Source: a virus
Direction: 5' to 3' (one strand)
Length of the DNA: 64,000 nucleotides
Virus record (IMG/VR): IMGVR_UViG_3300028886_001504
Shown: piece after piece, positions 5,984 to 61,991 of the stretch
Layout: every line of letters starts with the position of its first letter
Numbering within the stretch: position 1 is the stretch's first letter
Notes under the pieces: generated by a model
Told to the model about the DNA's origin: nothing
Database searches by the model: none
What the model saw: only the letters and a program-made list of their open reading frames with translations
Position numbers and translations under genes: made by a program

Positions 5984-7192
5984 ATGAATGACGTAACATG
6001 TAAAAAACTGTTTAACACCGAAGATGGTAAGCAAAAACGAATGGTTAGTATTTTAAAAATTTTTAGAGAAAACAAGAATGTGGAAGAATATGTAAAAAAC
6101 AGATATTCGGACTCCACATCAATTAAAGAAAGTGTTTATCGTATATTAAATAATATTGAAATTAGGCCACAGTGTAGGTGCGGAAAAGTATTAGAGTTTG
6201 ATTATCCTCTAAACACTTTCCATAAATATTGCTGTTCAAAATGCCAAAATTCAGACCCAGAAAAGATTAAAAAAGACAAAAAAACTAAACTGGATAAATA
6301 TGGGTCAGAAAATTACAACAATTTTGAAAAAATGAAAGAAACTTGCTATGAACGCTATGGAACAACATCTTTCACTAAGACGAATGAGTTTATAGAAAAA
6401 ACAAAAAAGACTAATTTTGAAAAGTATGGTGTAGATTGGTGATTACAGACTGATACTTGTAAAGATGAAACGAAAAAAGTAAAAAAAGAAAAGTACGGTG
6501 ACGAGAACTATAATAATCGAAATAAGGCGAAAAATACATCACTAGAAAGATATGGGGTTGAAAACACTATGCAATGGGAGGGTTCAAAGCAAAAAGAAAA
6601 AGAAACTTGCCTAAAAAGATACGGTGTTACTTCTTATGCTAAGACAGATGAGTTTAAGAAAAAACTAAAAGCCACTTATCTTAAAAAATGAGGGGTTGAC
6701 AATTGCACAAAAAGCGAAGAATGAAAAAACAAATGATATTCAAATGAAGAGTGAGTAAAAGAAAAAGTAGATAAAATCTACAACACTATGTTAAAAAACT
6801 GTAGTTTTTCACATTCTAAACCAGAGCAAGTTATCTTCAATTTCTTAAAAAATGAGTATCCTGATACAATTTATCAATACAAAGAAAAAAGATACCCCTT
6901 CAAATGTGATTTTTATATCCCTTCAAAAGATTTATTTATTGAATACAACGGCTATTGGGCACATGGCGGACACTTTTTTAACGAGAATGATGAAAAAGAT
7001 GTAGAAAAACTGAAATCATGAAAAGAGAAAAGTAAAAAATCTAAACAATACGAAAATGCAATAAAGACATGGACAATAAAAGACCCTTTGAAACTTAAAA
7101 CTTTTCAAGAAAACAATCTTAAACACATAATACTGTGATATGACAGTTTTAAAAATTTAGAGCAGATAAAAGAAATGGTGGACGAATTTTAG
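5984..7192 (+). CDS. homing-endonuclease-like protein: Zn finger, four ~35-aa repeats (ETC..RYG), C-terminal DUF559/Vsr-like nuclease; 7 in-frame TGA read as sense
   Basis: One frame from 5984 to TAG at 7190-7192 with TGA at 6440, 6689, 6722, 6734, 6752, 7019, 7136 and no TAA/TAG; C-terminal CDFYIPSKDLFIEYNGYWAH matches the DUF559 pattern. Confidence 0.6.
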
Positions 7193-7200
7193 TCCACCAT
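7173..7200. terminator. bidirectional hairpin aatggtggac...gtccaccatt
   Basis: Inverted repeat between convergent genes. Confidence 0.5.
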
Positions 7201-7205
7201 TCTTT

Positions 7206-8357
7206 TTATTTAGCATATGCTTGCTTCCCATTATTTGCAAGAATTGACAGTTCTGTATTTTCTTTTAGTTCTTCAATAGTATTGCTATTAGTATATGTCA
7301 TACAACTTCTGAGATAAGAATCCATATTTGTTATCCAGTGTTTTAGAGAATACTTTACTTTAACTGGTTTACAAATTCCTTCACTAACTTTAGAGCCATC
7401 ACCACCTATTAGTTTTTGAGAATACCTATGTGACATACCCCTATACATCCTATACGGTATTAATAGTTTTCTTGTTTTACCCAGAAAGTTTAAATCTTCT
7501 TCTGTGTATTTCTTATAATTTTCATATTGTTCTCTTGTCAAATATGAACCGTTGGAGAAATCTTCTTCCGTTTCTGCATAGCCTATCTCTCCACATGCTT
7601 CTTCACATTCGGCAAACAATTTGCCAATCATAACAAAATCACCACCTAGTGCAAGACTTTTCTGTATTTTATCATACCAGTCAATTCCACCATCAACAAT
7701 TATTTTAGTATATTTTTTTCCATTAGGATGTGCATCAATCCATTTGCTTCTTTCGATATTAATATCATCAATTAATGTTGCAGCGCCTGTGTATACTCCA
7801 ACAGCACATGCCGTCGTACACCGACTTCCAGAACCAATACAGAGCCTCATATACGAGATACCCGCATCACAATAAAACGAATATGCTAATTCATTGTTTA
7901 CATTTCCTGTCATTAAAACAATCCTTTCTCCGTATTTGTTTTTGATTTTTTTACAAATCTCATATAAAGAGTTTAATGTTCCATGTGCCATATCAATACA
8001 AATGTATTGAACCTTGTCAGATAAATCAAACATTTCTTTTTCAAAAATGTCATACACTTCTTTTTCTGAAAAACTAACAAATGTTTCTTCTGATAATTTT
8101 AATCTATCTTCCATTGTGCACCTTTGCATAATTGACCTAGGAATTACAGGCGTTATTTTATTTTCGATGAAAACTTTATAATTTTTTTCATCAATAACGC
8201 TTTCCATTGGCGAAGCAAAGATAGGATACATTTCTCTTCCACAAACAGTTACAAAAGGATTGATATCACCCCTATGTTCTGTATAACAAATTGGTGACTG
8301 TCTAATCCCTACATCATCAAGACCGTAGGTAATTTTTGTGAGTTTACTTTTATTCAT
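7206..8357 (-). CDS. IMPDH/GMP reductase family protein (GuaC-like)
   Basis: Catalytic loop CIGSGSRCTT; phosphate-binding VDGGI...GGDFVMIG; start set at MNKSKL after the upstream stop. Confidence 0.7.
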   Translation of the reverse strand: MNKSKLTKITYGLDDVGIRQSPICYTEHRGDINPFVTVCGREMYPIFASPMESVIDEKNYKVFIENKITPVIPRSIMQRCTMEDRLKLSEETFVSFSEKEVYDIFEKEMFDLSDKVQYICIDMAHGTLNSLYEICKKIKNKYGERIVLMTGNVNNELAYSFYCDAGISYMRLCIGSGSRCTTACAVGVYTGAATLIDDINIERSKWIDAHPNGKKYTKIIVDGGIDWYDKIQKSLALGGDFVMIGKLFAECEEACGEIGYAETEEDFSNGSYLTREQYENYKKYTEEDLNFLGKTRKLLIPYRMYRGMSHRYSQKLIGGDGSKVSEGICKPVKVKYSLKHWITNMDSYLRSCMTYTNSNTIEELKENTELSILANNGKQAYAK

Positions 8358-8370
8358 GTTACGTCTTCCA

Positions 8371-8613
8371 TTACTGTTGTGCATTAGGGTCACATAATTT
8401 TGCTTCAAACAATTTCTTTCCTTCAACAATTACTTCCATGCCATCTGTTTTGTTTTCAATACAATAGTTTTGGAAATAGAAAGAAAACAATGCAACAATT
8501 TCGTTTGGTGTAATTTCGCGTGAATCTTTGCTTAGTTTGTCACTATTTTGAAGTTTCTTAGATAAGAAAAGTTTGTTACCGTCTGATTTAAACGTATAAT
8601 CATTTGCTGCCAT
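8371..8613 (-). CDS. hypothetical protein
   Basis: 80 aa ORF. Confidence 0.4.
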   Translation of the reverse strand: MAANDYTFKSDGNKLFLSKKLQNSDKLSKDSREITPNEIVALFSFYFQNYCIENKTDGMEVIVEGKKLFEAKLCDPNAQQ

Positions 8614-8634
8614 AATAATATATTTTTAGTTTTG

Positions 8635-9393
8635 TTATTTTACACATTCATAGATTGTTAATAAAGTGTTATCGTCAAGTGGTTCGATAAATCTATCAAA
8701 GAACTGGCTTACCCAGATAAATTGGTTAACATTCGGTTCAAGTTCCTTCCAGCCCTCTTTTTCTGACAAAAAGGCATACCCCCAAAAAGCAGTGTTAGAA
8801 ATGACATATGTCTTTTTGTCACCATATTTCTCGAAGTAGGTTGTTCTGTTTTTCATGTTTTCATAAACAATCTTGTCTTCTTCGGTCTTTGGTTCTTTTC
8901 CTTCCATTACCATTTCCCAGGCGGTTTTATATACCGCTTGATTATTAAGATGTATAGAGTCCCAATCAATGTCTTTCTTTCTTGCTTGAAATGTCTCTTC
9001 ACCGTTCAAGGTCTTAAACGGCACAGAGAAAAACTTACCCATTGCATATGCCCTCCACTTACCATTTGGGTTCTCTGTAGTATATGCATCACCTGTATCT
9101 GGGTCGTGTTCATATGCAGATGTCATTGTAAGGAAGAAATCATCTGGTGTCATTTCTTTAATGTCTTTCAGTTCTTCTTTCAACGTTGCTACGTATGCAG
9201 CAGGTAACCCAGCCTTTTCTATCAAGCTCTGATATAATTCTATTTGTCTTTCTTGCAGTTTTTTTGCATCGTTAAACTTGAACAGTATGTGCTTATTGCC
9301 ATTACCGTTTGATACACCATAAGGCTCCATTAATTTTTCTGGGTTCTCCCCAGCAACAATGCACACAAAATGTGCAAAATCATCAGCGTTCAT
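8635..9393 (-). CDS. hypothetical protein
   Basis: 252 aa ORF. Confidence 0.45.
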   Translation of the reverse strand: MNADDFAHFVCIVAGENPEKLMEPYGVSNGNGNKHILFKFNDAKKLQERQIELYQSLIEKAGLPAAYVATLKEELKDIKEMTPDDFFLTMTSAYEHDPDTGDAYTTENPNGKWRAYAMGKFFSVPFKTLNGEETFQARKKDIDWDSIHLNNQAVYKTAWEMVMEGKEPKTEEDKIVYENMKNRTTYFEKYGDKKTYVISNTAFWGYAFLSEKEGWKELEPNVNQFIWVSQFFDRFIEPLDDNTLLTIYECVK

Positions 9394-9659
9394 TAATTCT
9401 TTGTTTTTGGCAAATTATTATTGTGTAGATTTTTATAGATACTTAACGTCTTCACTAGCGCATATGTCTTGCTCTGCTCTTCTCCAAGACGCTTTCTATT
9501 CAACCCATATATCAATAGATAAATTTCTTTATATGTCATCTTTGTTTCTTTTTTTCCAAGAAACCAACAACATATTTTATAGAGCCAGTTATTTTTAACT
9601 ACCCTAGTTACTTTATCATCCATCCAAGATAAGTCTATTTTCTCTTTCGGTGTTTCCAT
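9393..9659 (-). CDS. hypothetical protein
   Basis: 88 aa ORF. Confidence 0.35.
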   Translation of the reverse strand: METPKEKIDLSWMDDKVTRVVKNNWLYKICCWFLGKKETKMTYKEIYLLIYGLNRKRLGEEQSKTYALVKTLSIYKNLHNNNLPKTKN

Positions 9660-9660
9660 A

Positions 9661-12548: not shown

Positions 12549-13757
12549 ATGAATGTAATTACCTATAATGTAGAACTTAACCCAACACCAGAAACTTTCA
12601 ACTACTGGAAGAAAATGCTGGTGTTGTATGCACAGGCATATAATGACTGTGCAAACTACATTGTGGATAAAAAACTTCCTCTTTCCATTAAAACCGTTCA
12701 CAACAAAGTCTACGATAGGCTTCGGAAAGCCTACCAAGAACTCCCTTCACAAGCCGTTATCAGACTTTACAAGGATGTTATTCCTGCGTTCAAGTCTATA
12801 CGCTCGAACAAACAAAAAGACACTGAAACGCCACAGAAGAAAAATCTGTCAATGAGGCTTGACAAACGCCTCTACACAAGAGTGGATAGCGATGGTATTG
12901 TAATCACCTCAGAGGTAGCTAGAAAACGTGTTAAAATACCATTTGTCTTGTATGATAAAGTAACAGAACTTCTAAGCAAATACGAAGTATCTGACCCAAC
13001 GATTTTCATTCGTGATAACAGGTTATACCTGTCAATACCGTTTTCAATCCCAACCATTGTCACCGACAATGACAATGCTGTTGGCATTGACCTTGGCATT
13101 AAACGGTTGTTCGTTACCTCAGAAGGTGTGGCATTTAAAGACAAAGCATATCTTCGTGAGCGAAGGAAGGTGCGGCACAATAAACGCAAACTACAAGAAA
13201 AATCAAATAAAAGTCGCACGGCAAAAAAACACCTTAAGAAAATCAAAAGAAGGGAAGTCAACCTCTCAAAAGATATGTTGCATAGAGCAACTAACGCAGT
13301 TCTCGAATCAACATCAGCATCAGTTCTTGTAGTCGAAGACCTATCGAAGATAAAAACCAAAACCTCCAAAACCAAAGAAGGGTTTAAGAGAACAAAACAC
13401 AATAATTCTTTCTCTCAAGTTCCCGTTAGGGAATTCAGAGACATGTTGGCTTACAAGGCACAGTTACACGGAAAACGTGTTGAAACAGTTTCTCCAACTT
13501 ACACCAGTCAAATGGATTGCCGTACTTCAAATAGAGACGGCAACAGAAAAGGTTGCCGATACTATTGCTCAGACGGAATCGTCTTTGACGCAGATTGGAA
13601 CGCAGCAGCCAATATCGCTATTAGAGCGAACCACCCGTTATCGAATATACTGCCATTGGATGGCACACTTAAATTCCTGAACGGCAGGGCACAGTCAATT
13701 GCCCATACGACGAAGGACACACCCTTTCGTCAAGCCCACGAATTAATTCGTGGGTAG
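12549..13757 (+). CDS. tnpB: TnpB (IS605 OrfB-family RNA-guided nuclease)
   Basis: RuvC-like GIDLGIKRLFV; C-terminal Zn finger CRTSNRDGNRKGCRYYC with DADWNAAANIA. Confidence 0.85.
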   Translation: MNVITYNVELNPTPETFNYWKKMLVLYAQAYNDCANYIVDKKLPLSIKTVHNKVYDRLRKAYQELPSQAVIRLYKDVIPAFKSIRSNKQKDTETPQKKNLSMRLDKRLYTRVDSDGIVITSEVARKRVKIPFVLYDKVTELLSKYEVSDPTIFIRDNRLYLSIPFSIPTIVTDNDNAVGIDLGIKRLFVTSEGVAFKDKAYLRERRKVRHNKRKLQEKSNKSRTAKKHLKKIKRREVNLSKDMLHRATNAVLESTSASVLVVEDLSKIKTKTSKTKEGFKRTKHNNSFSQVPVREFRDMLAYKAQLHGKRVETVSPTYTSQMDCRTSNRDGNRKGCRYYCSDGIVFDADWNAAANIAIRANHPLSNILPLDGTLKFLNGRAQSIAHTTKDTPFRQAHELIRG

Positions 13758-16898: not shown

Positions 16899-17678
16899 TT
16901 AATCTGTGTATGTTACAACTCTTATATTATCGTCACTAAAGAAATCACCAGTAAGGCTCTCTGCAAATTGTTCGACTGTTTGAATAAACGCATAAAGATT
17001 CATAACATCATACAATTCATCCTCGAACATATAGTCAATGTCTTCTTCATAACATGCACACTCCGAATCATTATCTTCTTCTTTTTCTTGTGTCTTAGGA
17101 AGTTTATCATGTAAAGACGGAAGTGTGTGTTTTTTGACAAGCAAATTAACCTTTTTGTCTATGTTATTCAATTTATCCATGACAATACAGTTCTCAAATT
17201 TTTTATCAAAAAGCCTCAATAGTCGCTTTTTCCACATTTCAAATGATTTATTGTATGCTTCCCATAATTCGGCTATTGTGGCATATGACTCATTATACCA
17301 CCATTTACCACCCCAAGTTTTTTCTTTACCATATTTTTCTTTGTAATCCCTATTCTCTTTGTCAATAATTGCGTATTGTTCATTAAACCAAGCCTTTACG
17401 CCATCACTAACATCTGTTGGTAATCCTCTTTTTGCAAGAGGACTGTTAATCATCATGTTGTTAAACAAGTCCCTTACAGACCCCTGTTTCCAAAACTTAA
17501 TGAAACGGTCATAACCAACATGATTCTCATCCAACACATATGGCTTTGCTTTTGTAGTCTCAACCTTTCCATCCACGATTACGGTTGTTTCTCTATCTTT
17601 AAATGGATAAAGCGCATACAAAAGTTCCCATTTGCCTTTCTTTTGTACTTCTATGAAAAAACAAGATGTTGTGCTCAT
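16899..17678 (-). CDS. hypothetical protein
   Basis: 259 aa ORF. Confidence 0.45.
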   Translation of the reverse strand: MSTTSCFFIEVQKKGKWELLYALYPFKDRETTVIVDGKVETTKAKPYVLDENHVGYDRFIKFWKQGSVRDLFNNMMINSPLAKRGLPTDVSDGVKAWFNEQYAIIDKENRDYKEKYGKEKTWGGKWWYNESYATIAELWEAYNKSFEMWKKRLLRLFDKKFENCIVMDKLNNIDKKVNLLVKKHTLPSLHDKLPKTQEKEEDNDSECACYEEDIDYMFEDELYDVMNLYAFIQTVEQFAESLTGDFFSDDNIRVVTYTD

Positions 17679-18955
17679 TTTTTGTAGTGTTTTATTATTA
17701 TTTTAATACAATCTTCTCTGGTGAGCCGTGGCCTTCTGTAGACTTTTTCAAGTAGAAAATTTTGCACATTTTTTATTTCTGGCCCTGCTTCAATGTTAAG
17801 GGCTGTCATTATGTCATTACCATCAACTGGTAGTTTATATCTGAACAAAGAACTATCGTTATTAAAATGTTTCTTTGCTGTCGCTATCAGCCTATTATAA
17901 GTGATTTTGTCAAATGTTATACCATAATAAGCCTCAGCCACATTCATAAACATGACAAAACATTTACATTTATACTCCAATCTTCTAACATTCCTTGATA
18001 ACAAAATGTTCTTTTCCTTTAACAGTTCCCTAACCGTATCAAGTATGAAAACGACTTCGTTCACTATCTCATTGGAAAGTTTCAATCCTCTAAGTTCATT
18101 ATACACATTTTTCCAATCGTAGTGCATCATAACAGCCAACAAGGTGGTTTGTGTGGAACCCTCTTTCTTGCACAAATTCAATCCCTCAATAAGCGATTTT
18201 TGTTTAAAACCGTCAATATCGTCAAGACCGTTGAAAATATATTTCATTGCACCAATTAGCATTAAAATCTCAATGGCTTCTGAAACATGCTCAGAATTGA
18301 GGATTTTCAACAATTCATCAGCAATTCTTTCTCTACTTATAATTGAAAGTCTATGTGCATTCTTACACATACCCTCATAGGTTTTTGTTTCGATAACAGA
18401 ATCATAACGAGAAAAGAATCTGACAGCCCTCATAATTCTTAATGGGTCATCGCTGAATATGATGTCTGGTTCACCACAACACTTCAGCACATTGTTGTTT
18501 AGGTCTTCAATGCTTGTACCGTTGAAATCACACACTTTGTTTGTCGATATGTTACGATAAATTGCATTGTAGGTGAAATCCCTTCTGGTACAGTCATCCA
18601 TAATAGTACCAAAGGCGGTTTCTGGATTACGTGATTCCATATCGTGGTACGCTTCTTTCCTTGTCTGTACGGCTTCCAATTCGATATCTGGAAAGTTTTT
18701 CAAACGAAACATCGTAGTACCGAAATGTTCATAGACAACAACAGTACCAACAGTGCGTCCGTTAGATTCAAGCCATTTGGAAAACTTGATACCGCCGTCT
18801 AAAATGTCTACCACCAAATCAATATCCTTAATCTCTCTACCAGCAATAAAATCCCTCTCACATCCACCGACAGAGTAGACGTGGCCTTCAAACTCTGAAC
18901 CTTTGATAAGGCTCCTGATTTCCGCTAATACCTCTTGATATCTCTTTATTTCCAT
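17675..18955 (-). CDS. CCA-adding enzyme / poly(A) polymerase-family tRNA nucleotidyltransferase
   Basis: Head-domain motif GGCERDFIAGREIKDIDLVV. Confidence 0.75.
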   Translation of the reverse strand: MEIKRYQEVLAEIRSLIKGSEFEGHVYSVGGCERDFIAGREIKDIDLVVDILDGGIKFSKWLESNGRTVGTVVVYEHFGTTMFRLKNFPDIELEAVQTRKEAYHDMESRNPETAFGTIMDDCTRRDFTYNAIYRNISTNKVCDFNGTSIEDLNNNVLKCCGEPDIIFSDDPLRIMRAVRFFSRYDSVIETKTYEGMCKNAHRLSIISRERIADELLKILNSEHVSEAIEILMLIGAMKYIFNGLDDIDGFKQKSLIEGLNLCKKEGSTQTTLLAVMMHYDWKNVYNELRGLKLSNEIVNEVVFILDTVRELLKEKNILLSRNVRRLEYKCKCFVMFMNVAEAYYGITFDKITYNRLIATAKKHFNNDSSLFRYKLPVDGNDIMTALNIEAGPEIKNVQNFLLEKVYRRPRLTREDCIKIIIKHYKK

Positions 18956-29863: not shown

Positions 29864-30358
29864 ATGTTTATTACCGAAAACGACATTAAAAGAATGGTTA
29901 GAGAATGTGCCAAGAAAGTTCTTAACGAATTTTACGGCACTTTTGATGATACAAGAGATGCACCATGGAACCGTACTGATGATTCAAGGACCAGTAAAGA
30001 ATCAACCGAATGGAACGAATTTTATTGTGATTTAACTGATTTAATTAATCAGAATCCACAATACGCAGAAATGCTCCAACCTTTACAAGAAACCCCAGGC
30101 GATTGGACTTCTTGTAATGTGGGTAAAGTCACATTATGGTATGATGTAACTGATTCTGATTTTGAACAAGACGAAGATGGATATGTTTTTGCAAACAATA
30201 GCGAAATAGACACAGATAGCGTAGAAATAGAACTATCGAAAGACAATCAATATCGCTCAACATTTCCTCCAGAACTAATTCAACTGCTCGAAAACGAAGT
30301 ACAAACCGAATTTTCTGAAAACAGAGATTGATTAATAAGTCTATTAAACGATAATTAA
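29864..30358 (+). CDS. small acidic protein, paralog A (N-terminus ITENDI..V.E..KK); 1 in-frame TGA
   Basis: Track ORF ends at TGA 30329-30331; reading through gives 9 more codons to a TAA that sits directly before a terminator hairpin. Confidence 0.45.
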
Positions 30359-30408: not shown

Positions 30409-32055
30409 CTATCGTGACAGAAGTGTAAGAACCTCCTGATTCAGAGCAGAATCAACCATTTCCTGCATAGTCATGTTTCTGACTTCACCAGTCTTCTCAT
30501 CGACTACCTTAGCATCACCTCCCAAAAGAAGGGTCACTATCGCAGGGTCGAAACCACTGAACATGTATGTGCCAGGGCAATCCATGTTGGAAGGGTAATC
30601 CTTGGTGTTGCGGTTTACGCAATACCACCATACCATCTTCCAGTTCTTAAGGAAGTCCTTAGAGAACCCAGCGTTTCTCAGTTTTGAAACCACAGCCTCG
30701 TAGTTGGTCTGCACCTCACTCTGGCTTGGTGCGGGGCTATTCCAAGAATAACCACCAGCAGGGTTGAACTGCATATCTGAGACTACTACAATCGTCTGAG
30801 GGAAATCAGATTCAGGAATCTCAGGGTGGTTCCTCTTAATATTGATAATCTCGTCAATGACGGACTGGAAGTTCGTGCCACCGCTGCCAACGTTAGGCAT
30901 GCTACCGTACCACTTCTCAGTGAAAGACTCGCCAGACAACTTGTGGAGCCATGCGCGATTGTCAAAGCCCATAACATAGTTGTGGAAAGCACCCTCGTTG
31001 AGCGTTGCAAAGTAGATTGCAAGAGACTTGGCGAGTTCAACCGCACGAAGGTCAACACCGTCAACGTTGCTGTTCATAGAGCCAGACGTGTCAAGAGCAA
31101 CCCAAACATTACCCTTAATACCTCCCTGGTCCTGCTTTGCAGTCTTGATGAGGTTGGCAAACTGCTTGTCAATCGTAAGTTGTGTAGTCTTAGGAAGACT
31201 TGCGATGCCGTAGTAGTTACGGAGTTTACGAGCGAACTCATAAACATAGCCGTTGAACTTAGCAACTGGCTGGGTTTCAAGCCACTTCTCGTAAGAATCT
31301 TCAAGTCCGTGATTCTTGAGGAACTTACCGCTTACCAGATTAAGCAGTGCCTTGCCAGGGATGGTGGCCCAGTTAATCCTAGAGTAGAGGCCAGAACACA
31401 TGTAGGTCTGGAACTTGTGAGCAACACCGCTAGCCTTGAAGGTACGGTAATCTCTGTAAGACCAACCAGCGAACTTGGCGAAATCCTTAGCCAACTCATT
31501 AGTAGACTTAGCCCAAGTGGTTTCACACTTGTTGTTCGAGCGAATGCGAGGCATATACTTCTTAACAAGGTCCTTGTTGTCGGCATCGTTGATACCTTCG
31601 GCCATAACCTTGAAGTATTCAGCCTTGTTAGGCTTCTCACTCATAGAGAGCAGCACCCAAAGGTCCTTCCAAGAACCAACGATTGGAACGAGCCAAAGGT
31701 TCTTGTAATAGATGTCAGGGTGGAACTTCTCGAACCACAAAAGACGCTTGAACGCCTCGTCACGAGCGCCCTGTCCTTTCTGCACCTTTTCGGTCTTCTT
31801 ACCATCCATCAACTTCGTCTGACGGGTAATCATACGAAGATAGAATGGGAACTTGAGGGCTGCATCAGGGTTCTCGTTGTAAAGAGCCGCCTGGTCTGCG
31901 AACACTGCGTTGATGTCACGACCTCTGTTAGTACCAGCCTTACCGAACTGGTCAAGCAGAGTAGTACCGATAGATGCATAAGACTTAGCACCGTTCTCCG
32001 TGTAGGAAGACCCACTCCCGCGAGTCATTTCCTTCAAAAAAAGATTCTCACTCAT
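30409..32055 (-). CDS. vWA-domain protein with TROVE/Ro60-like N-terminal region
   Basis: MIDAS motif VALDTSGSM; -7 motif at 32118-32125 lies inside the track ORF, so the start is reset to MSENLFL. Confidence 0.5.
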   Translation of the reverse strand: MSENLFLKEMTRGSGSSYTENGAKSYASIGTTLLDQFGKAGTNRGRDINAVFADQAALYNENPDAALKFPFYLRMITRQTKLMDGKKTEKVQKGQGARDEAFKRLLWFEKFHPDIYYKNLWLVPIVGSWKDLWVLLSMSEKPNKAEYFKVMAEGINDADNKDLVKKYMPRIRSNNKCETTWAKSTNELAKDFAKFAGWSYRDYRTFKASGVAHKFQTYMCSGLYSRINWATIPGKALLNLVSGKFLKNHGLEDSYEKWLETQPVAKFNGYVYEFARKLRNYYGIASLPKTTQLTIDKQFANLIKTAKQDQGGIKGNVWVALDTSGSMNSNVDGVDLRAVELAKSLAIYFATLNEGAFHNYVMGFDNRAWLHKLSGESFTEKWYGSMPNVGSGGTNFQSVIDEIINIKRNHPEIPESDFPQTIVVVSDMQFNPAGGYSWNSPAPSQSEVQTNYEAVVSKLRNAGFSKDFLKNWKMVWWYCVNRNTKDYPSNMDCPGTYMFSGFDPAIVTLLLGGDAKVVDEKTGEVRNMTMQEMVDSALNQEVLTLLSR

Positions 32056-32851: not shown

Positions 32852-33439
32852 ATGAGTAAACAAGTTAATATAACCGAAAATGACATCATAAAATTAGTTA
32901 CAGAATCTGTCAAAAAACTCATCAAAGAAGACATATATAATGCCTGGAAGCCTATGGAATGTGATGATGAAAATTATTCAGAAATTACAGAAACTAAGCA
33001 ATTAAGAAATATCATCAGAAGGATGGTTAAAGAGGCTTTTGACATGAGTTACGGCGCACCTACTGGAATCGAACAACCAAAGCCAGCAGGTGGTGTTAAT
33101 ACTAATACCAATGAAAAACTTGACAGCGCACATGACATAAGAAAAAAAATCAGACAGTGGGCAAAAGCACATGAAAAAGGGCTTGGAAAAGAAAAGAGTG
33201 GTGGCAGAATGAATAAATCAAAACGTTCACTCGTTATTACATGACTCAAAAGGAATGATGTAAACTGCGCTGAAATTATGAGAAAACTTTGGCATCCAGC
33301 AAAAGAGGATGAGGATAGTGCAAGAAGTTATTTCTACAAATGTAGGGATGGTAAACTAAACGATTCTGGTGTACCATACAGATTCACGGATGAGGAAATC
33401 AATGCGCTATATAGAATTAAATCAGAAGCATCAGCATAA
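32852..33439 (+). CDS. small protein, paralog B (shares N-terminus with 29864 gene); 1 in-frame TGA
   Basis: Track ORF ends at TGA 33242-33244; same frame continues 64 codons to TAA 33437-33439, which abuts a terminator. Confidence 0.5.
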
Positions 33440-43078: not shown

Positions 43079-43168
43079 TTTAACAATATCCTTACTGTTT
43101 TTTTAACCATCCGCTTTATGTCGGATTCTGTTTTTTGATATTAACAACTTTTAAGCATCTACAACTGT

Positions 43169-44047
43169 TCAGCCAGATGGAATACCGTCTGCACCTGTTG
43201 TCCAACCTGACATATTTGAACTTTTAACAAAAGTTCCTGTGTTTCCTACACCTTCTACCCATTCAGTTGTACTGGATGGAAAGTATCTGGTTGCGAGGCA
43301 TTTGATGTAATTTAAACTAGCGCAATCACAAAACATTTGATAATAACAAGAACTCAATATGGTTGTTGCGGGTAATTCAGGTGCTTTTGTTAATGATGTA
43401 CAACTTCTAAACATATATTGATAGCAAGCTTGTTCTAAAGTAGTTGCGGGTAATTCAGGTGCATTAACGAGGCTAGTGCAATTATAAAACATCCCATAAT
43501 AACAGCAATAAGTTAAAGTAGTGGCTGGCATAATTAATTTACTAGCATCTGTTAACCCAGTACAATAAATAAATAACCCATTAAAATTATACATATCTTG
43601 TAGTGTTGTAGCGGTAGCAAAACCAGCGCTACTAATCATACTCATTATGTTACCTTTTACTTTAAATTGACATGTTGTACCGTAAAAACTGTTAGACTGA
43701 CTTTCTCTATTGTCGCCATATGTTGTATTATCCCCCCTAAACTGAACAGTATCACCCGAAACAACGCTTATAGATACGCCTTCTGTATTAGCTGTTATAC
43801 TTGTCCATTCTCCGTTATTCTTCTTGTATTCAATTGTTTTTGGTGTACAATTTTGTGCTATTCATATAATATTACCATCGCCAGTTACTTCAAATGTAAG
43901 TGGTGTGCACAGAAGTTTTTCATAACCTGATTTGTTATAATCAACCCCTTTCCCTTCGGTATAAGAGACTCAAGGTTCTAAATAACTATTATCTCTTGCC
44001 TCCGTATAAGCAGATTGTGATTCAAAGTAATGCGTGTATTTTCCCAT
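43169..44047 (-). CDS. BspA-type leucine-rich-repeat protein; 2 in-frame TGA
   Basis: Track ORF 43169..43645 continues upstream in frame to ATG 44045-44047 across TGA at 43862-43864 and 43970-43972; repeats ..ATTL..CY.YMF..CTSL..APELP. Confidence 0.5.
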
Positions 44048-44058: not shown

Positions 44059-44071
44059 TCTCTATAAATAG
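44059..44071 (-). promoter_or_regulatory. AACTATTTATAGA promoter-like motif (minus orientation)
   Basis: Reverse complement of ctctataaatagtt, 12 nt upstream of ATG 44047. Confidence 0.4.
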
Positions 44072-44089
44072 TTGATACGCTACAAAACA

Positions 44090-44791
44090 CTAGAATTTAA
44101 TCATGAAGGTTCCACCGTGTATATGGTTTTTGTTTGTGTAATCATACTGGTATAAGTATGAGAATCCGTATTTATCTTCGAAGAACATACCAACCTGACC
44201 GACAACAGATGGCATTGTTGTAATACCAGCACTTACAAACGGACTAAATTTCTTTAGCATCATATTATCATACTCTATCTGTTTAATTACAGGTACAAAT
44301 GTATAGTCAAGATGCCTCAGTTGGTTGTTTGAGATAATTATGTCAACATCACAACGGCCAAGTGTATCTTCATTAAATAATGTTTGGTAATATTCTCTTT
44401 CTTTAACCCAGTCTTTTGCTATTGCGGTAAATATTTTCAATGAGTCATCCTTTGTAGTTGGGTTAATATAAATCAAACTATCTTTTGTTGGAAAAAGTTC
44501 ATCAAAGAGACCATTTGCGACACAATATTTAATTAAATCACCAGTATCAACCTCTGCTGGTATTCTAACCTCTACAGGATATGGTACAGGAACTTCTTGT
44601 TTGACAGTATCCCCAGGAATGTAGATTGGTGGTTTTTCACCAGGCATTTTAATGGTTTTCCTTCCAATGAAGAAACCAACGCCTAATAGTAATATTGCTA
44701 AAGCGATAATCCCGCCTATTTTTCAATTGTTTCTTTGTGTGGTGTTGACATTTATTACTGTTGCGCCACTATTTGTCATATCATTTTCCAT
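44090..44791 (-). CDS. N-terminally membrane-anchored protein; 1 in-frame TGA
   Basis: Track ORF 44090..44647 extends in frame to ATG 44789-44791 through TGA 44723-44725, adding a TM helix IGGIIALAILLLGVGFFIG. Confidence 0.45.
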
Positions 44792-55033: not shown

Positions 55034-55037
55034 ATTA

Positions 55038-55746: not shown

Positions 55747-56442
55747 CTACGGTTTATCTTTGGTTTCACCAGTGTTTCTATATACATTAAATTGCGGAAA
55801 CTGCATAAAGTCGTTTTCTTCGTCTTCTATTTTATCATCGGTTTGTTTTTCACCTAAAACAAGATGTTTATACGTCCTTTCGAGTCACTTCTTGAAATCA
55901 TCAACTGACATTTCATGTTTAGCATAGTTACATTTAGCACAACAAGGCACTACGTTGTCTAATGTGTAGCCTTTACTAGAATCCACTCTATCTATACCAT
56001 TGTGTGCTCATGGTTTTTGTGTTTTTTGCATATATTGTAATTCATACTCTCTAACTTCTGGTGATGCACCACAATAATAACAATCTTGTTCCATTATCTC
56101 TATAAACTCTTCAAATGTTAAATCAAAGTCTAGTCCTCTTTTTGACGCACCTGCTCTATAATCCTTTAATAGTCTATTTTTCAATCCAGAATGTACAATA
56201 CCCTGACTTTTCCTCAAAGCTGTTTCTGTTGATGTTTTCTTGTTTGTACACGAATGACATCCGAAACGGTTGACTAATGTTTTTTCTTTCGCATGAAATT
56301 CATTACCACAATCACATCTACATTCCCACAGTCAAACGTTTTTACCTTTTACTGTTGATTTTCTACAATAATTCTTAATGAGGATAAATCTATCATTAAT
56401 CCTATCCCCTTCCTTGTAATTTGTTTTGTGTTTTGGTCCCAT
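55747..56442 (-). CDS. HNH homing endonuclease; 3 in-frame TGA
   Basis: ATG 56440-56442 to TAG 55747-55749 in one frame with three TGA; Zn finger WECRCDCG; HNH core HNGIDRVDSSKGY...NVVPCCAKCNYAKH; track fragment 56008..56217 is in the same frame. Confidence 0.6.
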
Positions 56443-58743: not shown

Positions 58744-59819
58744 CTGTCACCAGAACCACTGGTTAAATCCATCAACGATGCTAAAAGATTAACATACCTT
58801 CTTGGTGTAGTCCCTTGACTTACCATATTCCCCTTAAGGCTCATGCCATTTTTTAAAGAAATTTCGCGTTCAATAGCTTTTTGAAGTTCCTCACCTGAAA
58901 GGTCTTTATATTGGTCATCAGCAAGCGCCTTAACCTTGACTTCGTTTGGTGTACTGTCAAGAAGTTCTTCATCGGTGTAACCAGGACTTGAAACAGGGTC
59001 TGCCATTTCCCAGATGCCAGCATCCAAATCCTTGTAACTGCCGTCACCATATGCCATAACCACTAAGTCTTTCCCACATACACCTTTAATAAGGTATTTA
59101 ACATCAACACATACGTCCTTTGCTATTTTTCTGGTAGGGAACAGTTTTAGTTTTTCTTCCGTGGCTTTATTTGTACCAAGCAAACCAAAATCTGGATTCT
59201 TGTCTTTACAAATATCCGCTAACGTGATAAACGTTTTCCCATCAAGTCTCCCAAGCGGAGGATTATATTGATTACTCCAATTTTTATAATCATGAAGCCC
59301 ACAATAAATCGCACATTTATGAAAATACCAAGTATCTTCATTGTTGAGAATTTCGCACTCACATCCTTCATCCTTACAAATTTGGCTATAATACTCTTTG
59401 ATGTTAACTCCAGTAAACGGATTAACGTCACAGGGATTTCCAACTTCATCGTACTTAGGCATTACAATAGTGACTTTCTTTGTCGCTCTAGCAACACCTT
59501 TAAGAATCATACTGAACCTATTACGAGAATAGATAGGATTGATTAACGTGATTTCTTCTGAGTTACCAGAAAGCCTCTTAACATCCTCCGCAATTTCATC
59601 AACGGTTACATATAAGTTTGCAGCCCTTGCAATCACCGATTCAGTAATACCAATAACATCCTTATCCGACAAGTCATCACCGTTATTCGTTACAGATAAA
59701 ATACTGTCTGCAACAATCTTTGCCAAATTATCTCCTGAACGTATAATCGGGCATTTTACACCCCTTGCTGTTAAAGTTTTCTCTGCCATATTATTTTGAC
59801 TCCTTTTTCTTTTTAACAA
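58704..59819 (-). CDS. hypothetical protein
   Basis: 371 aa ORF. Confidence 0.45.
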   Translation of the reverse strand: MLKRKRSQNNMAEKTLTARGVKCPIIRSGDNLAKIVADSILSVTNNGDDLSDKDVIGITESVIARAANLYVTVDEIAEDVKRLSGNSEEITLINPIYSRNRFSMILKGVARATKKVTIVMPKYDEVGNPCDVNPFTGVNIKEYYSQICKDEGCECEILNNEDTWYFHKCAIYCGLHDYKNWSNQYNPPLGRLDGKTFITLADICKDKNPDFGLLGTNKATEEKLKLFPTRKIAKDVCVDVKYLIKGVCGKDLVVMAYGDGSYKDLDAGIWEMADPVSSPGYTDEELLDSTPNEVKVKALADDQYKDLSGEELQKAIEREISLKNGMSLKGNMVSQGTTPRRYVNLLASLMDLTSGSGDRCTPIVLVQNYFR

Positions 59820-60900
59820 CCTTCTTACCTTTTACAGTCTTTACAGTCTTTTTCTCTCCAACATTGATTTCTTCATCAATTTTGAGTGTTTCTTTATCAA
59901 TACCAAGAGTGTCAACAAACTTTTCGAGCGTCAAATCACACGTCTCGTCAATCCAATCGGTTACATAATAAAGTTTGTTGGAACCAGCAATCACACCAAA
60001 CAAAATGGGGTCTTTCTTTTTGGCAATCTCCTTTTCCGTTGGCTTGTATGATTCTCCCTTCGGGTCGTAGTGCAAAATGACGTAATTGTCAAATACCCTC
60101 AAATCATTTGCTTTCTTGATTGTATCAATAACCTCCTGTGGTAAAGGTCTTGAGAAGTTCTTAATATATGTGAGTGCAAGCCCCTTCTCGGTTTTAAGTG
60201 CAAAATCAACAACTTGCTTCTCGGTTACAACATAATAATAACCCTCTGAATAAAGAAGTGATTCATATTTGTTGGCAATCATTTCCTTAAGCAAGGACTC
60301 AACCAACGCTGTTTGGCCTACATTATTTGCATTGTGAATTGCAATAAGATATTTACTGATACGATTTACATAAGATTGAGCAGACTCCTGACTGGTAAGT
60401 TTTACTTTAGTAAAGAACTCAACCGCATCAAACTCATATTTTTCCTTCTTTGTGAGAAACTTATCAAAAAGTTTCTTAAATAACGAAACCTTCTTCTTGT
60501 CCCCAGTTTCAACTCCACTGGAGGTAAAGACAAACGTATTGTTGTTGGTAAATCCATGCATACCGCCGTACCCACTGAGAACGTTGTTCAACTTATTGCT
60601 CTTGATTAAACAAGTAAGTTCATCAAGCGATGCAGCAGCAATCTTATCAAAATCTACCTTTCCGTCGACCACATAAGCGTCTGGTGTTCCATAAACAACA
60701 AACGGGGTTGGTTGTGTTGTATATATATTTGTGGTACTTGTACCAGCATCGGTGGTGCTTGGAAGGTTGATGCTTTGTCGCATAACGATTTTCGCTTGTT
60801 CTTCTTTAACCCCTCCAATGTTCTTCCATTTAGGGAGATTTTGGTCAATAACAACACCATTTTCAAAAATGGCAAGTCTCTTTTTGTCTGTTGTAAGCAT
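59791..60900 (-). CDS. hypothetical protein with Lys-rich C-terminus
   Basis: 369 aa; -7 motif 60925-60932. Confidence 0.45.
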   Translation of the reverse strand: MLTTDKKRLAIFENGVVIDQNLPKWKNIGGVKEEQAKIVMRQSINLPSTTDAGTSTTNIYTTQPTPFVVYGTPDAYVVDGKVDFDKIAAASLDELTCLIKSNKLNNVLSGYGGMHGFTNNNTFVFTSSGVETGDKKKVSLFKKLFDKFLTKKEKYEFDAVEFFTKVKLTSQESAQSYVNRISKYLIAIHNANNVGQTALVESLLKEMIANKYESLLYSEGYYYVVTEKQVVDFALKTEKGLALTYIKNFSRPLPQEVIDTIKKANDLRVFDNYVILHYDPKGESYKPTEKEIAKKKDPILFGVIAGSNKLYYVTDWIDETCDLTLEKFVDTLGIDKETLKIDEEINVGEKKTVKTVKGKKVVKKKKESK

Positions 60901-60924
60901 ATCTTTATTTTTTGTTCAGTGTTG

Positions 60925-60932
60925 CAAAGATA
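60925..60932 (-). promoter_or_regulatory. Bacteroidota-type -7 element (with CAAA -33-like ~22 nt further)
   Basis: CAAAGATA upstream of 60900. Confidence 0.45.
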
Positions 60933-60991
60933 TACACTTTTTTTTATAAAACAAAAAAAGTTGCAGATTTTTTTCTACAACTTTTAATTTG

Positions 60992-61076
60992 CGGAGGGTA
61001 CTGGATTCGAACCAGTGGACCCATACGGGTCGGCAGTTTAGCAAACTGCTGGTTTAAGCCACTCACCCAACCCTCC
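60992..61076 (-). tRNA. tRNA-Ser (anticodon GCU), type II with long variable arm
   Basis: Manual fold: acceptor GGAGGGT/ACCCTCC, anticodon stem GCAGT/ACTGC, loop TTGCTAA, T-loop GGTTCGAATCC. Confidence 0.65.
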
Positions 61077-61112
61077 AAAAGCACTGCATTTAAGGGAATG
61101 CAGGAAACCAAG

Positions 61113-61184
61113 AGTCAACGACTGGATTCGAACCAGCATAAAAAGGTTTTGCAGACCTTCCCCTAACCATTCGGGCACGTTGAC
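61113..61184 (-). tRNA. tRNA-Cys (anticodon GCA)
   Basis: Manual fold: acceptor GTCAACG/CGTTGAC, anticodon stem AAGGT/ACCTT, loop CTGCAAA. Confidence 0.5.
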
Positions 61185-61289
61185 GATGAAAACTCTTACA
61201 TTCCACTATCTCGCCCTATGCGTCTAGGGTCACACACCAGTTCGGGATGATTGATTTTTTTGCACACCAGTGTGAAGCATAGTCCGCGA

Positions 61290-61991
61290 TTACTTCTCCA
61301 GTTTATTGGGACTGGCGTTTCCTTTTGAGTTTGTTTTCCTTTTCGTTCTTGTCGATTTTCCAGTATTCAATGCTGAATAATTTACTGTCATAGCATGGTG
61401 ATTCGGGCATAAAACTTGAAGATTTTCTTCTTTACTATTGTTTGCATCACCATCAATGTGGTGTATTTCAACTATTGGTCTTCCACTCTTAGGATTTACT
61501 CAGTTACATCCACAAATTTCACAAGAACAATTTGTTTTTTCTAACATGTACCTTCTAACAAATTGTGATAGTTGTCCTACCCCTCTATTTCCACTACACT
61601 CTCCACTTTTTCATCTTAGAATATACTGTTTATATTCATACTCTCTTTGACAATGTGAACCACAAAATTTTGTGCTTTTTCTCAAATCCGTTATCTCTCC
61701 TCCACAATTCAAACACACTCTTTCATGTTTTTGTTTCCTCACCCTCTTCTTGTTATTATAAGATGCAGAACAGGAATGTGAGCAAAATAATTTCTGGTCC
61801 TTTTCAAGTTTTTTACCACAAACAATGCAATACTTAGTATTATTTAGTTTAATTGTTTCCAGTCAATCTTTTCAATCAACACCGTTTTCTTTTAAATAAA
61901 GTTTTACTTTTTCTCTGTTAGTGTAATTTGCTTTTCCATAAAGTTTTCTAGATACGTCATTTAACGACTTGCAGTCTTTCAATATTTCCAT
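61290..61991 (-). CDS. HNH homing endonuclease; 4 in-frame TGA
   Basis: ATG 61989-61991 to TAA 61290-61292 in one frame with four TGA and no TGG; Zn fingers CIVCGKKL...CSHSC; HNH core VEIHHIDGD...LQVLCPNHH. Confidence 0.6.

What the first reader, a model, noticed from the sequence alone, without database searches (positions are those of the whole stretch)
5984..61991. Partial genetic-code split: TGA is a sense codon (probably Trp) in a defined subset of genes, while core genes still stop at TGA
Seven genes form single, sensible reading frames only if in-frame TGA is read through: 5984-7192 (7 TGA), 29864-30358 (1), 32852-33439 (1), 43169-44047 (2), 44090-44791 (1), 55747-56442 (3), 61290-61991 (4). 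In ~35% GC DNA an accidental open frame of 230-400 codons with several TGA and no TAA/TAG is very unlikely. The read-through products carry intact HNH, Zn-finger, DUF559 and LRR motifs on both sides of the TGA codons. TGA falls at Trp-plausible positions (KDWLE, NIIWIAQ, YLEPWVSY, QRNNW-TM helix). The 61290 HNH gene has four TGA and no TGG. This matches stop-codon recoding described for late genes of some large phages, but here it is confined to homing endonucleases and accessory genes.
Basis: seen in the sequence. Interest (0 to 1): 0.9.

Follow-up and report, generated by a model that had tools for sequence, protein, structure and literature searches.

The report
Opal-to-tryptophan recoding in megaphage gene cassettes
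In this piece of a giant (at least 384 kb) phage genome, a small set of self-contained genes, mostly mobile nucleases, use the stop codon TGA to encode tryptophan while the main metabolic genes avoid it; this is a real but already described kind of phage stop-codon recoding.

Summary
All seven ORFs contain in-frame TGA and no in-frame TAA or TAG.

- **Trp identity.** In alignments with hundreds of intact homologs, W is the commonest residue at 16 of 18 testable TGA positions, and in up to 54 of 54 homologs.
- **One correction.** The "stop" at 43169-43171 is itself a Trp codon. That gene ends at TAA 43151.
- **One ambiguity.** The TGA of 29864-30358 could be either a stop or Trp.
- **More such genes** lie at the window edge and in the flanks.
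- **Core genes.** 85 core genes hold 307 TGG and no in-frame TGA. Twelve of 90 core ORFs of at least 60 aa end in TGA, seven of them in ATGA start/stop overlaps.
- **Own transcription units.** Eight of ten TGA-bearing genes follow a promoter-like motif, AACTATTTAT, about 27 nt before the ATG. Several are followed by a hairpin terminator.
- **Mobility and selection.** The 7-TGA nuclease gene is missing from relatives that are 96-97% identical. Another TGA-bearing ORF is under purifying selection across its TGAs.
- **Decoder not found.** No tRNA(UCA) occurs in the 88 kb I could reach. A tRNA-Trp(CCA) and an amber suppressor tRNA(CUA) are present.

This fits published phage opal recoding, including the reported preference for homing endonucleases. 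It is a new member of a known kind.

The parts
5984..7192 (+). DUF7487 gene with a Vsr-like PD-(D/E)XK nuclease C-terminus, probably a free-standing homing-endonuclease-like gene. It has 7 sense TGA codons at 6440, 6689, 6722, 6734, 6752, 7019 and 7136, and a TAG stop.
   Evidence: Pfam DUF7487 at 7.6e-23, spanning residues 138-346 and so crossing six TGAs. More than 2000 homologs, many about 400 aa and uninterrupted. W is the majority residue at 5 of 7 TGA columns. The gene is absent from relatives L006, L007 and L010, which are 96-97% identical.
29864..30358 (+). Small ORF of 164 aa with one TGA at 30329, 9 codons before the TAA. Whether this TGA is a stop or Trp is unresolved.
   Evidence: The 8-codon tail has a coding score of -0.03. 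No Pfam or PHROG hit. The motif lies 28 nt upstream and a hairpin terminator follows the TAA.
32852..33439 (+). Small ORF of 195 aa with one sense TGA at 33242.
   Evidence: The 64-codon segment after the TGA has a coding score of 0.32, typical of coding sequence. A hairpin terminator follows the TAA at 33439, not the TGA. The motif lies 27 nt upstream. No homologs were found.
43151..44047 (-). BspA-type leucine-rich-repeat protein of 298 aa with 3 sense TGA codons (first bases 43972, 43864, 43171). The true stop is TAA at 43151-43153, not the TGA at 43169-43171.
   Evidence: About 18,000 homologs. Codon 293 is W in 344 of 382 aligned repeats. W is the commonest residue at codons 62 and 26. 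The motif lies 24 nt upstream.
44090..44791 (-). Membrane-anchored protein of 233 aa with one sense TGA (first base 44725) at codon 23, just before the transmembrane helix.
   Evidence: Homolog L073 aligns from residue 28 through the TM helix. There is no ATG, GTG or TTG between the TGA and codon 49, so the conserved helix can only be made by reading through the TGA. A one-mismatch motif, AAGTATTTAT, lies 26 nt upstream.
55747..56442 (-). HNH/endonuclease VII-like nuclease gene of 231 aa with 3 sense TGA codons (first bases 56334, 56010, 55887).
   Evidence: PHROG endonuclease VII/HNH families. 355 homologs. W is the commonest residue at all three TGA columns: 28/45, 21/45 and 33/45.
61290..61991 (-). 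Zn-ribbon plus HNH endonuclease gene of 233 aa lying between tRNA genes. It has 4 sense TGA codons (first bases 61874, 61865, 61613, 61502) and no TGG.
   Evidence: Pfam DUF2116 treble clef. W at the TGA columns in 52/54, 53/54, 54/54 and 23/54 homologs. The same TGAs occur in L012, from another sample. The motif lies 27 nt upstream.
63873..64000 (+). Start of a 530-aa HExxH metalloprotease-like gene that continues to position 65465 beyond the window and carries 2 TGA codons there.
   Evidence: PHROG metalloprotease. The post-TGA segments score 0.07 and 0.28. The motif lies 18 nt upstream.
5939..5947 (+). One of the promoter-like ACTATTTAT sites. The other window sites are 12522, 29835, 32824, 43024 and 63854 on the + strand, and 44064-44072, 62011-62019 and 63540-63548 on the - strand.
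   Evidence: 9 exact matches against 1.13 expected; 0 of 100 shuffles reached 9. Association with TGA-bearing genes: Fisher p = 1.7e-7.
60991..62137 (-). Start of the tRNA island: tRNA-Ser(GCU), tRNA-Cys(GCA) and tRNA-Thr(UGU) flank the HNH gene. The island continues for about 17 kb beyond the window.
   Evidence: It includes tRNA-Trp(CCA), tRNA(CUA) and a tmRNA, but no tRNA(UCA).
17675..18955 (-). Example of a TGA-free core gene (CCA-adding enzyme) that ends in a TGA forming an ATGA overlap with the next gene. Eleven other core ORFs end in TGA: 2913, 3275, 14391, 37111, 37959, 47388, 54059, 55038, 55216 and 58083 (low-end coordinates, - strand), plus one in the flank.
   Evidence: 7 of 12 are ATGA overlaps. 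The distance to the next in-frame TAA or TAG has a median of 5.5 codons.

Best explanation
**What the window is.** It comes from a megaphage of at least 384 kb related to the Lak/'huge phage' group.

**What the codon does.** In this phage UGA is decoded as tryptophan in a defined class of genes. The class consists of self-contained cassettes, each with a promoter-like AACTATTTAT motif and an ORF, and several with a hairpin terminator. Most encode mobile nucleases (a Vsr-like DUF7487 protein, two HNH proteins and a GIY-YIG protein). The rest encode an LRR protein, a membrane protein, a metalloprotease-like protein and small proteins of unknown function.

**What the other genes do.** The long co-directional operons of RNA-repair, NAD and sugar-nucleotide genes contain no in-frame TGA. 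They can therefore be translated by the unmodified standard-code host machinery.

**Shown here.**
- The TGAs are in frame and sit at Trp positions.
- The frames downstream of them are coding and under purifying selection.
- The TGA-bearing genes form a separate motif-defined class.

**Inferred.**
- At some stage of infection the phage makes UGA readable. The likeliest means is an opal-suppressor tRNA-Trp(UCA), and perhaps RF1 or TrpRS, encoded in the roughly 77% of the genome not seen here.
- The TGA-bearing cassettes would then be translated only at that stage, which delays or limits production of nucleases and accessory proteins.
- Read-through of the TGA stops of core genes would then cost only short tails.
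For: - **Trp identity.** W is the commonest residue at 16 of 18 tested TGA positions and the majority at 11.
- **Full-length homologs.** Intact homologs span the TGAs.
- **Cand 5.** Its conserved TM helix is reachable only through the TGA.
- **Coding scores.** Post-TGA segments score as coding.
- **Purifying selection.** Flank ORF -3352..-2639 keeps its 3 TGAs in relatives and shows 12 synonymous against 3 nonsynonymous differences, dN/dS about 0.06, mostly downstream of the first TGA.
- **Independent assemblies.** The TGAs are conserved in assemblies from other samples.
- **Codon usage.** Core genes have 307 TGG and 0 TGA in 20,317 codons. The cassettes have 26 TGA and 27 TGG.
- **Core genes are intact under code 11.** Examples are LigA, NAMPT and DnaK.
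- **Motif association.** 8 of 10 TGA-bearing genes against 4 of 85 TGA-free genes, p = 1.7e-7.
- **Terminators.** They are placed after the TAA or TAG, not after the TGA.
- **Published precedent.** Partial TGA recoding, early genes kept in the standard code, and a TGA-enriched homing endonuclease are all described (Borges et al.).
Against: - **No decoder found.**
  - The 88 kb examined includes a tRNA island of about 19 kb with more than 30 tRNAs. It holds no tRNA(UCA) and no canonical UCA anticodon arm.
  - None of the 524 tRNAs in the related loci has a UCA anticodon.
- **No accessory factors found.** RF1 and TrpRS are absent from the Pfam annotation of the region.
- **The adjacent contig carries an amber suppressor instead.** L049 has a tRNA(CUA), not an opal suppressor.
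- **Small gain in coding density.** It rises only from 82.8% to 85.4% under code 4.
- **Timing is not shown.** Nothing here establishes when the motif-driven genes are expressed.
- **Not all motif-driven genes use TGA.** Four of them have 11 TGG and no TGA.
Confidence: 0.8

Rival explanations
1. The TGA-bearing genes are dead on arrival or decaying. They would be mobile genes imported from TGA-recoded (code 4) donors into a standard-code phage, where they are truncated and not functional.
For: - Four of the ten are homing-endonuclease-type genes, and the DUF7487 gene is a recent insertion absent from relatives that are 96-97% identical.
- Their GC content is below the genome mean: 29-34% against about 36%.
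- No opal suppressor was found in 88 kb.
Against: - All 26 interruptions are TGA. None is TAA, TAG or a frameshift.
- Non-mobile genes (LRR, membrane protein, metalloprotease-like, small ORFs) also carry TGAs.
- One TGA-bearing ORF is conserved in relatives with dN/dS of about 0.06 across its TGAs.
- The cassettes use the same promoter-like motif as native TGA-free genes.
Confidence: 0.08
2. There is no dedicated suppressor. UGA is read at low efficiency by near-cognate tRNA-Trp(CCA) from the host or from the phage copy in the tRNA island, and the TGAs act as attenuators that keep toxic nucleases at trace levels.
For: - A phage tRNA-Trp(CCA) is present and no tRNA(UCA) was seen.
- Nucleases are over-represented among the TGA-bearing genes.
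- Low-efficiency reading of UGA by tRNA-Trp is known in bacteria (background knowledge).
Against: - With 7, 4 or 3 TGAs in one ORF, leaky read-through of a few percent per codon would give essentially no full-length protein.
- An LRR protein and a membrane protein have no obvious need for such attenuation.
- TGA makes up half of all Trp codons in these genes. That looks like free synonymous use rather than a few regulatory stops.
Confidence: 0.08
3. The whole system, host included, uses genetic code 4, and TGA is simply a normal Trp codon throughout the genome.
For: TGA aligns with Trp.
Against: - 85 core genes contain 307 TGG and no TGA.
- 12 core ORFs end at a TGA, 7 of them in ATGA overlaps typical of start/stop coupling.
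- The relatives are Lak-type megaphages of Prevotella, a standard-code host.
- For comparison, phages of hosts with recoded TGA carry in-frame TGA in about 90% of genes (Borges et al.).
Confidence: 0.03
4. It is a sequencing or assembly artefact, or a set of chance open frames.
For: Chance TAA/TAG-free frames of about 230 codons do exist antisense to real genes in this AT-rich DNA.
Against: - Identical sequence was found in the ENA, JGI and Logan assemblies.
- The same TGAs occur in variants at 99.3% and 96-97% identity from other samples.
- Homologs span every multi-TGA ORF.
Confidence: 0.01

Closest known systems
TGA-recoded gut phages (the Jade, Sapphire and Agate clades and some crAss-like phages) described by Borges et al. 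2021/2022 (bioRxiv 10.1101/2021.08.26.457843); earlier work by Ivanova et al. 2014 and Yutin et al. 2021
   Same: - TGA is read as Trp in a phage that appears to infect a standard-code host.
- Only a fraction of genes carry in-frame TGA (26-71% in the published clades).
- Other genes stay compatible with the standard code.
- A homing endonuclease is among the most TGA-enriched families in Agate phages, with the same proposed logic: no nuclease is made until the code changes.
   Different: - The fraction of recoded genes in the visible region is lower, about 10%, with a density gain of only 2.6 points. Density-based screens would miss it.
- No structural or lysis genes are in view.
- No tRNA(UCA), RF1 or TrpRS was found in the 88 kb read.
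- The recoded genes are tied to a specific promoter-like motif, something not described in that work (the word 'promoter' occurs 0 times in the text).
Lak megaphages and related 'huge phages' (Devoto et al. 2019; Al-Shayeb et al. 2020; Crisci et al. 2021)
   Same: - They are the closest relatives by DnaK: 62-64% identity to LR756501-4 and 48-49% to Lak.
- They share the very large genome, large tRNA islands, a tmRNA, tRNAs with inserts, and a tRNA(CUA).
   Different: - Lak phages recode TAG, using CUA suppressors and sometimes RF2.
- Here TAG behaves as a stop everywhere in the 88 kb, and TGA is the sense codon.
Late expression of phage T4 free-standing and intron-encoded homing endonucleases (background knowledge, not tested here)
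   Same: Nuclease genes are separate cassettes with their own phage-specific promoter, set among earlier-expressed genes. Their production is held back by an additional post-transcriptional block.
   Different: In T4 the block is an RNA structure that hides the ribosome-binding site. Here it would be in-frame UGA codons. The timing of the AACTATTTAT motif is unknown.
Genetic code 4 of Mycoplasma and Spiroplasma
   Same: UGA = Trp, and it is used interchangeably with UGG in AT-rich DNA.
   Different: In those organisms the reassignment is genome-wide and permanent, with tRNA-Trp(UCA) and no RF2. Here it is restricted to a gene class, and TGA still closes 12 of 90 core ORFs.

Membership tests
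Stop-codon-recoded phage (TGA to Trp) | In-frame TGA codons in genes whose homologs are uninterrupted | tested here: met
   Full-length homologs span all TGAs of 5984-7192, 61290-61991, 55747-56442 and 43151-44047.
Stop-codon-recoded phage (TGA to Trp) | TGA positions correspond to conserved Trp in alignments | tested here: met
   W is the commonest residue at 16 of 18 positions and the majority at 11, reaching 54/54.
Stop-codon-recoded phage (TGA to Trp) | Marked gain in coding density under the alternative code (surveys use about 5-10%) | tested here: not met
   82.8% rises to 85.4% over 82.7 kb. Only about a fifth of the genome was visible, and it is an auxiliary-metabolism region.
Stop-codon-recoded phage (TGA to Trp) | Phage-encoded suppressor tRNA with a UCA anticodon | tested here: inconclusive
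   None in 88 kb, including a tRNA island of more than 30 tRNAs. About 296 kb of the contig could not be read. Published surveys also find recoded phages with no detectable suppressor.
Stop-codon-recoded phage (TGA to Trp) | Accessory code-change factors (RF1, TrpRS) | tested here: inconclusive
   Absent from the precomputed Pfam annotation of the window and flanks. The rest of the genome was not seen.
Stop-codon-recoded phage (TGA to Trp) | Recoded codon enriched in late (structural, lysis) genes and avoided in early genes | not testable with these tools
   No structural or lysis genes lie in the accessible region, and expression timing is unknown. What is shown is that TGA is absent from the 85 operon-organised core genes and concentrated in motif-driven cassettes.
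Homing endonuclease genes | Nuclease domain of a homing-endonuclease family (HNH, GIY-YIG, PD-(D/E)XK) | tested here: met
   HNH/EndoVII PHROGs for 55747-56442. Homologs of 61290-61991 carry Pfam HNH domains PF01844/PF13392. GIY-YIG Pfam hit for 70147-70734. For DUF7487, one homolog is named a Vsr endonuclease by its source.
Homing endonuclease genes | Presence/absence polymorphism between close relatives at the same locus | tested here: met
   The DUF7487 gene is absent from L006, L007 and L010 (96-97% nt identity in the flanks). The neighbouring IMPDH-family gene is replaced by a version only 36% identical. This was not tested for the other nuclease genes.
Homing endonuclease genes | Demonstrated site-specific cleavage and homing | not testable with these tools
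   Requires experiment.

The most novel reading that the evidence does not exclude
UGA would be decoded as Trp in a promoter-defined regulon of cassettes without any conventional tRNA(UCA). Possible routes are the phage tRNA-Trp(CCA) combined with inactivation of RF2, or one of the unusual insert-bearing tRNA-like genes after processing. Alternatively, the phage recodes two stop codons in different gene classes: TAG through its tRNA(CUA) in late genes not seen here, and TGA in the cassettes. Either would be a mode of phage code switching that has not been described.
Probability: 0.12. Interest if true: 0.75.

Novelty: new member of a known kind. Interest (0 to 1): 0.4.

Why it matters
- **Annotation.** Standard code-11 annotation splits or truncates these genes in every public gene call I looked at.
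- **Detection.** Recoding here is light: about 10% of genes and a 2.6-point gain in coding density. Screens that require a 5-10% density gain would not flag it, so partial recoding may be more common in huge phages than surveys suggest.
- **A testable handle.** The link between sense TGA and a sharply defined promoter-like motif allows a direct test of the idea that recoding is a timing or containment device for nucleases and accessory genes.
- **Evolution of code use.** A Lak-related phage that carries an amber suppressor tRNA yet uses opal as a sense codon is a useful case for how code use shifts within a clade.
- **Limit.** None of this changes the existing picture of phage stop-codon recoding.

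Tried and rejected
1. **Near-identical phage genomes.** A megablast of 20 kb against 50,697 phage records found no match.
2. **Reaching the rest of the 384-kb contig.**
   - Look-ups are limited to window proteins. They gave ±10 kb (L008, L013).
   - One exact-match scan added 5.6 kb (L049).
   - Further scans of IMG/VR and GTDB genomes for the end of L049 found nothing.
   - The closest IMG/VR relative has only 71% DnaK identity.
3. **Opal suppressor tRNA.**
   - Tools used: ARAGORN with and without introns, the Rfam tRNA model at a permissive E-value, and a custom scan for a UCA anticodon arm plus T-loop. None was found.
   - None of the 524 tRNAs of the related loci has a UCA anticodon.
4. 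**TAG as a sense codon.** There are no credible in-frame TAGs in the 88 kb. All are terminal with low-scoring extensions.
5. **Sequence context of TGA.** Sense and stop TGAs show no distinguishing context.
6. **Back-up stops after core-gene TGAs.** The distance is shorter than the control but not significantly so (p = 0.067).
7. **Homologs of 32852-33439 and 29864-30358.** None in IMG/VR or the phage records, so Trp at those two TGAs is unverified.
8. **Group I introns around the nuclease genes.** No Rfam hit in the window.
9. **Relative L068** (same tRNA-Thr / HNH / tRNA-Cys synteny). It has a shorter HNH gene and no TGA-bearing ORFs.
10. **JGI protein P0121.** It showed W at two TGA positions, but the DNA has TGA there. 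JGI had simply translated it with an alternative code, so it is not independent evidence.
11. **Full-library protein search with X at the TGAs.** A TGA-free segment was used instead.

Full report
**Source and setting.**
- The window is 36% GC, and almost all genes lie on the minus strand.
- An exact-protein look-up places it on ENA contig ERZ27256887 k141_2852081, which is 384,030 bp. The window is the reverse complement of about positions 94148-158147.
- Identical pieces occur in a JGI metagenome (3300032007) and in Logan assemblies.
- There is no near-identical phage record.
- By DnaK, the closest genomes are the 634-735 kb 'huge phages' LR756501-4 at 62-64% identity, and the Prevotella Lak megaphages at 48-49%.
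- The window encodes auxiliary functions:
  - DnaK and NAD-dependent ligase;
  - NAMPT and NAD synthase;
  - dTDP-sugar enzymes;
  - RNA ligases and a CCA-adding enzyme;
  - Thg1, RNase T and an IS605-family TnpB.
- No structural or lysis genes are in view.

**The observation.** All seven ORFs exist as described, with 7, 1, 1, 2 (plus a terminal one), 1, 3 and 4 in-frame TGA codons and no in-frame TAA or TAG. The HNH gene at 61290-61991 has no TGG.
- Length alone is not strong evidence, because TAA/TAG-free frames of similar length occur antisense to real genes.
- The seven ORFs nonetheless fill the gaps of a dense code-11 map.
- All post-TGA segments longer than 30 codons have codon-usage scores typical of the true reading frame.

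**Which amino acid.**

| Gene | Homologs | Residue at the TGA columns |
|---|---|---|
| 5984-7192 (DUF7487) | more than 2000, many about 400 aa and uninterrupted | five W-majority columns (23-41 of 44), one Y/F/W column, one variable |
| 61290-61991 (HNH) | 195 | W in 52/54, 53/54, 54/54 and 23/54 |
| 55747-56442 (HNH/EndoVII-like) | 355 | W in 28/45, 21/45 (the rest Y/F) and 33/45 |
| 43151-44047 (BspA-type LRR) | about 18,000 | codon 293: W in 344 of 382 aligned repeats; W commonest at codons 62 and 26 |

The gene really ends at TAA 43151.
- In the membrane protein 44090-44791, a homolog aligns through the transmembrane helix. That helix lies between the TGA (codon 23) and the first later start codon (codon 49), so it can only be made by reading the TGA.
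- For 32852-33439 there are no homologs. The evidence is a coding score of 0.32 for the 64-codon tail and a hairpin terminator placed after the TAA.
- For 29864-30358 the TGA could equally be the true stop.

**The TGAs are neither artefact nor decay.**
- The same TGAs are present in a variant at 99.3% identity from another sample (L012).
- They are also present in relatives at 96-97% identity (L006 and L007).
- A TGA-bearing ORF just left of the window (window-relative -3352..-2639, 3 TGA) differs from its L006 ortholog by 12 synonymous and 3 nonsynonymous codon changes. Most lie downstream of the first TGA, and dN/dS is about 0.06.
- All 26 interruptions in the ten TGA-bearing ORFs are TGA.

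**The split.**
- The 85 TGA-free ORFs of at least 80 aa have 307 TGG in 20,317 codons. Their stops are 58 TAA, 16 TAG and 11 TGA.
- The ten TGA-bearing ORFs have 26 TGA and 27 TGG, and all stop at TAA or TAG.
- Among core ORFs of at least 60 aa, 12 of 90 end in TGA. Seven of these are ATGA overlaps with the next gene.
- The next in-frame TAA or TAG follows after a median of 5.5 codons, against 9 for TAA-terminated genes. The difference is not significant (p = 0.067).
- Core genes are therefore compatible with the standard code. If UGA becomes readable later, they would gain only short tails.
- Whether they actually terminate at UGA cannot be shown from sequence.

**A separate gene class.**
- Eight of the ten TGA-bearing genes have the exact motif ACTATTTAT, usually 24-28 nt before the ATG. 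Two of the eight have other spacings (13 and 44 nt). The extended form is AACTATTTAT(A/T), often with TTTTG(G) 11-12 nt upstream.
- The remaining two have one-mismatch versions.
- Only 4 of the 85 TGA-free genes have the motif: TnpB, 62291-63520 and two flank genes.
- The window holds 9 exact sites against 1.1 expected. The association gives Fisher p = 1.7e-7.
- Several cassettes end with a hairpin terminator directly after the TAA or TAG, and half lie on the strand opposite the core operons.
- The motif, with the same spacing, also precedes genes in distant relatives, mostly TGA-free ones. It is therefore a general promoter-like element of this phage group rather than a recoding signal.

**Mobility.**
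- The DUF7487 gene is missing in L006, L007 and L010.
- There, the adjacent IMPDH-family gene is replaced by a version only 36% identical, although the flanks are 96-97% identical.
- The TGA-bearing set also includes two HNH genes, a GIY-YIG gene (its TGA aligns with W in a homolog) and a metalloprotease-like gene that starts at 63873 and runs off the window.

**How UGA is read remains open.**
- I extended the sequence to 88.3 kb using flanks L008 and L013, plus L049 from a different assembly (joined by a 185-nt overlap at 100% identity).
- The region to the right of the window is a tRNA island containing:
  - more than 30 tRNAs;
  - a tmRNA;
  - tRNA-Trp(CCA);
  - an amber-suppressor-type tRNA(CUA);
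  - three tRNAs with 80-100 nt inserts at position 37/38;
  - about ten tRNA-like elements that share an ACAGCAA box upstream of a T-arm, with weak YrlA matches.
- No tRNA(UCA) or canonical UCA anticodon arm exists anywhere in the 88 kb, nor among the 524 tRNAs of the related loci.
- TAG behaves as a stop throughout.
- RF1 and TrpRS are not in the region.
- About 77% of the contig could not be read.

**Comparison with the literature.** Borges et al. (bioRxiv 10.1101/2021.08.26.457843) describe the following:
- TGA-to-Trp recoding in several clades of gut phages that infect standard-code hosts.
- In-frame stops in only 26-71% of genes, with other genes kept in the standard code.
- Suppressor tRNAs in many but not all genomes.
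- In Agate phages, a group I intron homing endonuclease among the families most enriched in TGA, interpreted as delaying nuclease production.

A 2026 survey of jumbo phages reports TAG and TGA recoding, suppressor tRNAs in about 61% of recoded genomes, and frequent tRNA introns (PMC13037316). The present case fits this framework.

What is specific here:
- the recoding is light;
- the recoded genes are tied to a promoter-like motif;
- the phage belongs to a Lak-related lineage whose visible suppressor tRNA is amber, not opal.

**Verdict.** It is a new member of a known kind rather than a new phenomenon. The decoder and the timing remain to be found in the unseen part of the genome.

Noticed in passing
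window 5939, 12522, 29835, 32824, 43024, 63854 (+); 44064-44072, 62011-62019, 63540-63548 (-); flanks at -4410, -3365, 70761, 73299 (window-relative): A sharply conserved promoter-like element, TTTTG(G)-N11-12-AACTATTTAT(A/T), lies usually 24-28 nt upstream of ATG codons. It occurs 9 times in the window against 1.1 expected. It precedes cassette-like genes, including TnpB and most TGA-bearing genes, and recurs with the same spacing in distant relatives.
   Followed up: partly
L049 3172-3244 (-), about 12 kb beyond the right end of the window: A tRNA with a CUA anticodon (amber suppressor type) lies in the tRNA island. Yet no in-frame TAG is needed anywhere in the 88 kb read, and 16 of 85 core genes stop at TAG.
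   Followed up: partly
L013 1-8300 and L049 (window-relative about 65700-79400): The tRNA island holds more than 30 tRNAs and a tmRNA (L013 2459-2866). Three tRNAs (Val, Tyr, Asn) carry 80-100 nt inserts at position 37/38. About ten tRNA-like elements have a conserved '(A)AACAYACAGCAA' box 35-45 nt upstream of a GGTTCGAATCC T-arm; two of these give weak Rfam YrlA (Y RNA-like) matches.
   Followed up: partly
window 5877-8358: In relatives 96-97% identical (L006, L007, L010), this segment is replaced. They lack the DUF7487 gene, and their IMPDH-family gene is only 36% identical in protein to the one at 7206-8384. This is a cassette swap of a metabolic gene together with a nuclease gene.
   Followed up: yes
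window 12549-13757 (+): An IS605-family TnpB (OrfB_IS605 / Cas12f-like TNB domains) with 41% GC lies on the opposite strand to its neighbours. It is preceded by the same promoter-like motif as the TGA-bearing genes, with 24 nt nearly identical to the site upstream of 5984. It has no in-frame TGA.
   Followed up: no
window 30409-32055 (-): This gene has 48% GC against 36% for the window. It matches DUF7788/DUF2828 and the PHROG family 'RNA-binding protein', and it sits among RNA-repair genes and near Y-RNA-like elements. It may be a Ro60-like protein, but this was not verified.
   Followed up: no
window 29870, 32870; flank -2695: A shared peptide motif, [IL]TE[NS]DI[KRI]K.V.E..KK, occurs at the N-terminus of two small TGA-bearing ORFs and at the C-terminus of a third. 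This suggests a small paralogous family or a shared module.
   Followed up: no
window 5958-5987 (+): A nine-codon upstream ORF (MKFFKNNKK) ends in a TGA that overlaps the ATG of the 7-TGA DUF7487 gene (ATGA).
   Followed up: no
window 1902-2534 (-): Two adjacent small genes (2184-2534 and 1902-2159) are in the same frame, separated only by two TAG codons. Both halves score as coding. This is probably two genes, but it is the only place where TAG read-through would give a sensible product.
   Followed up: no
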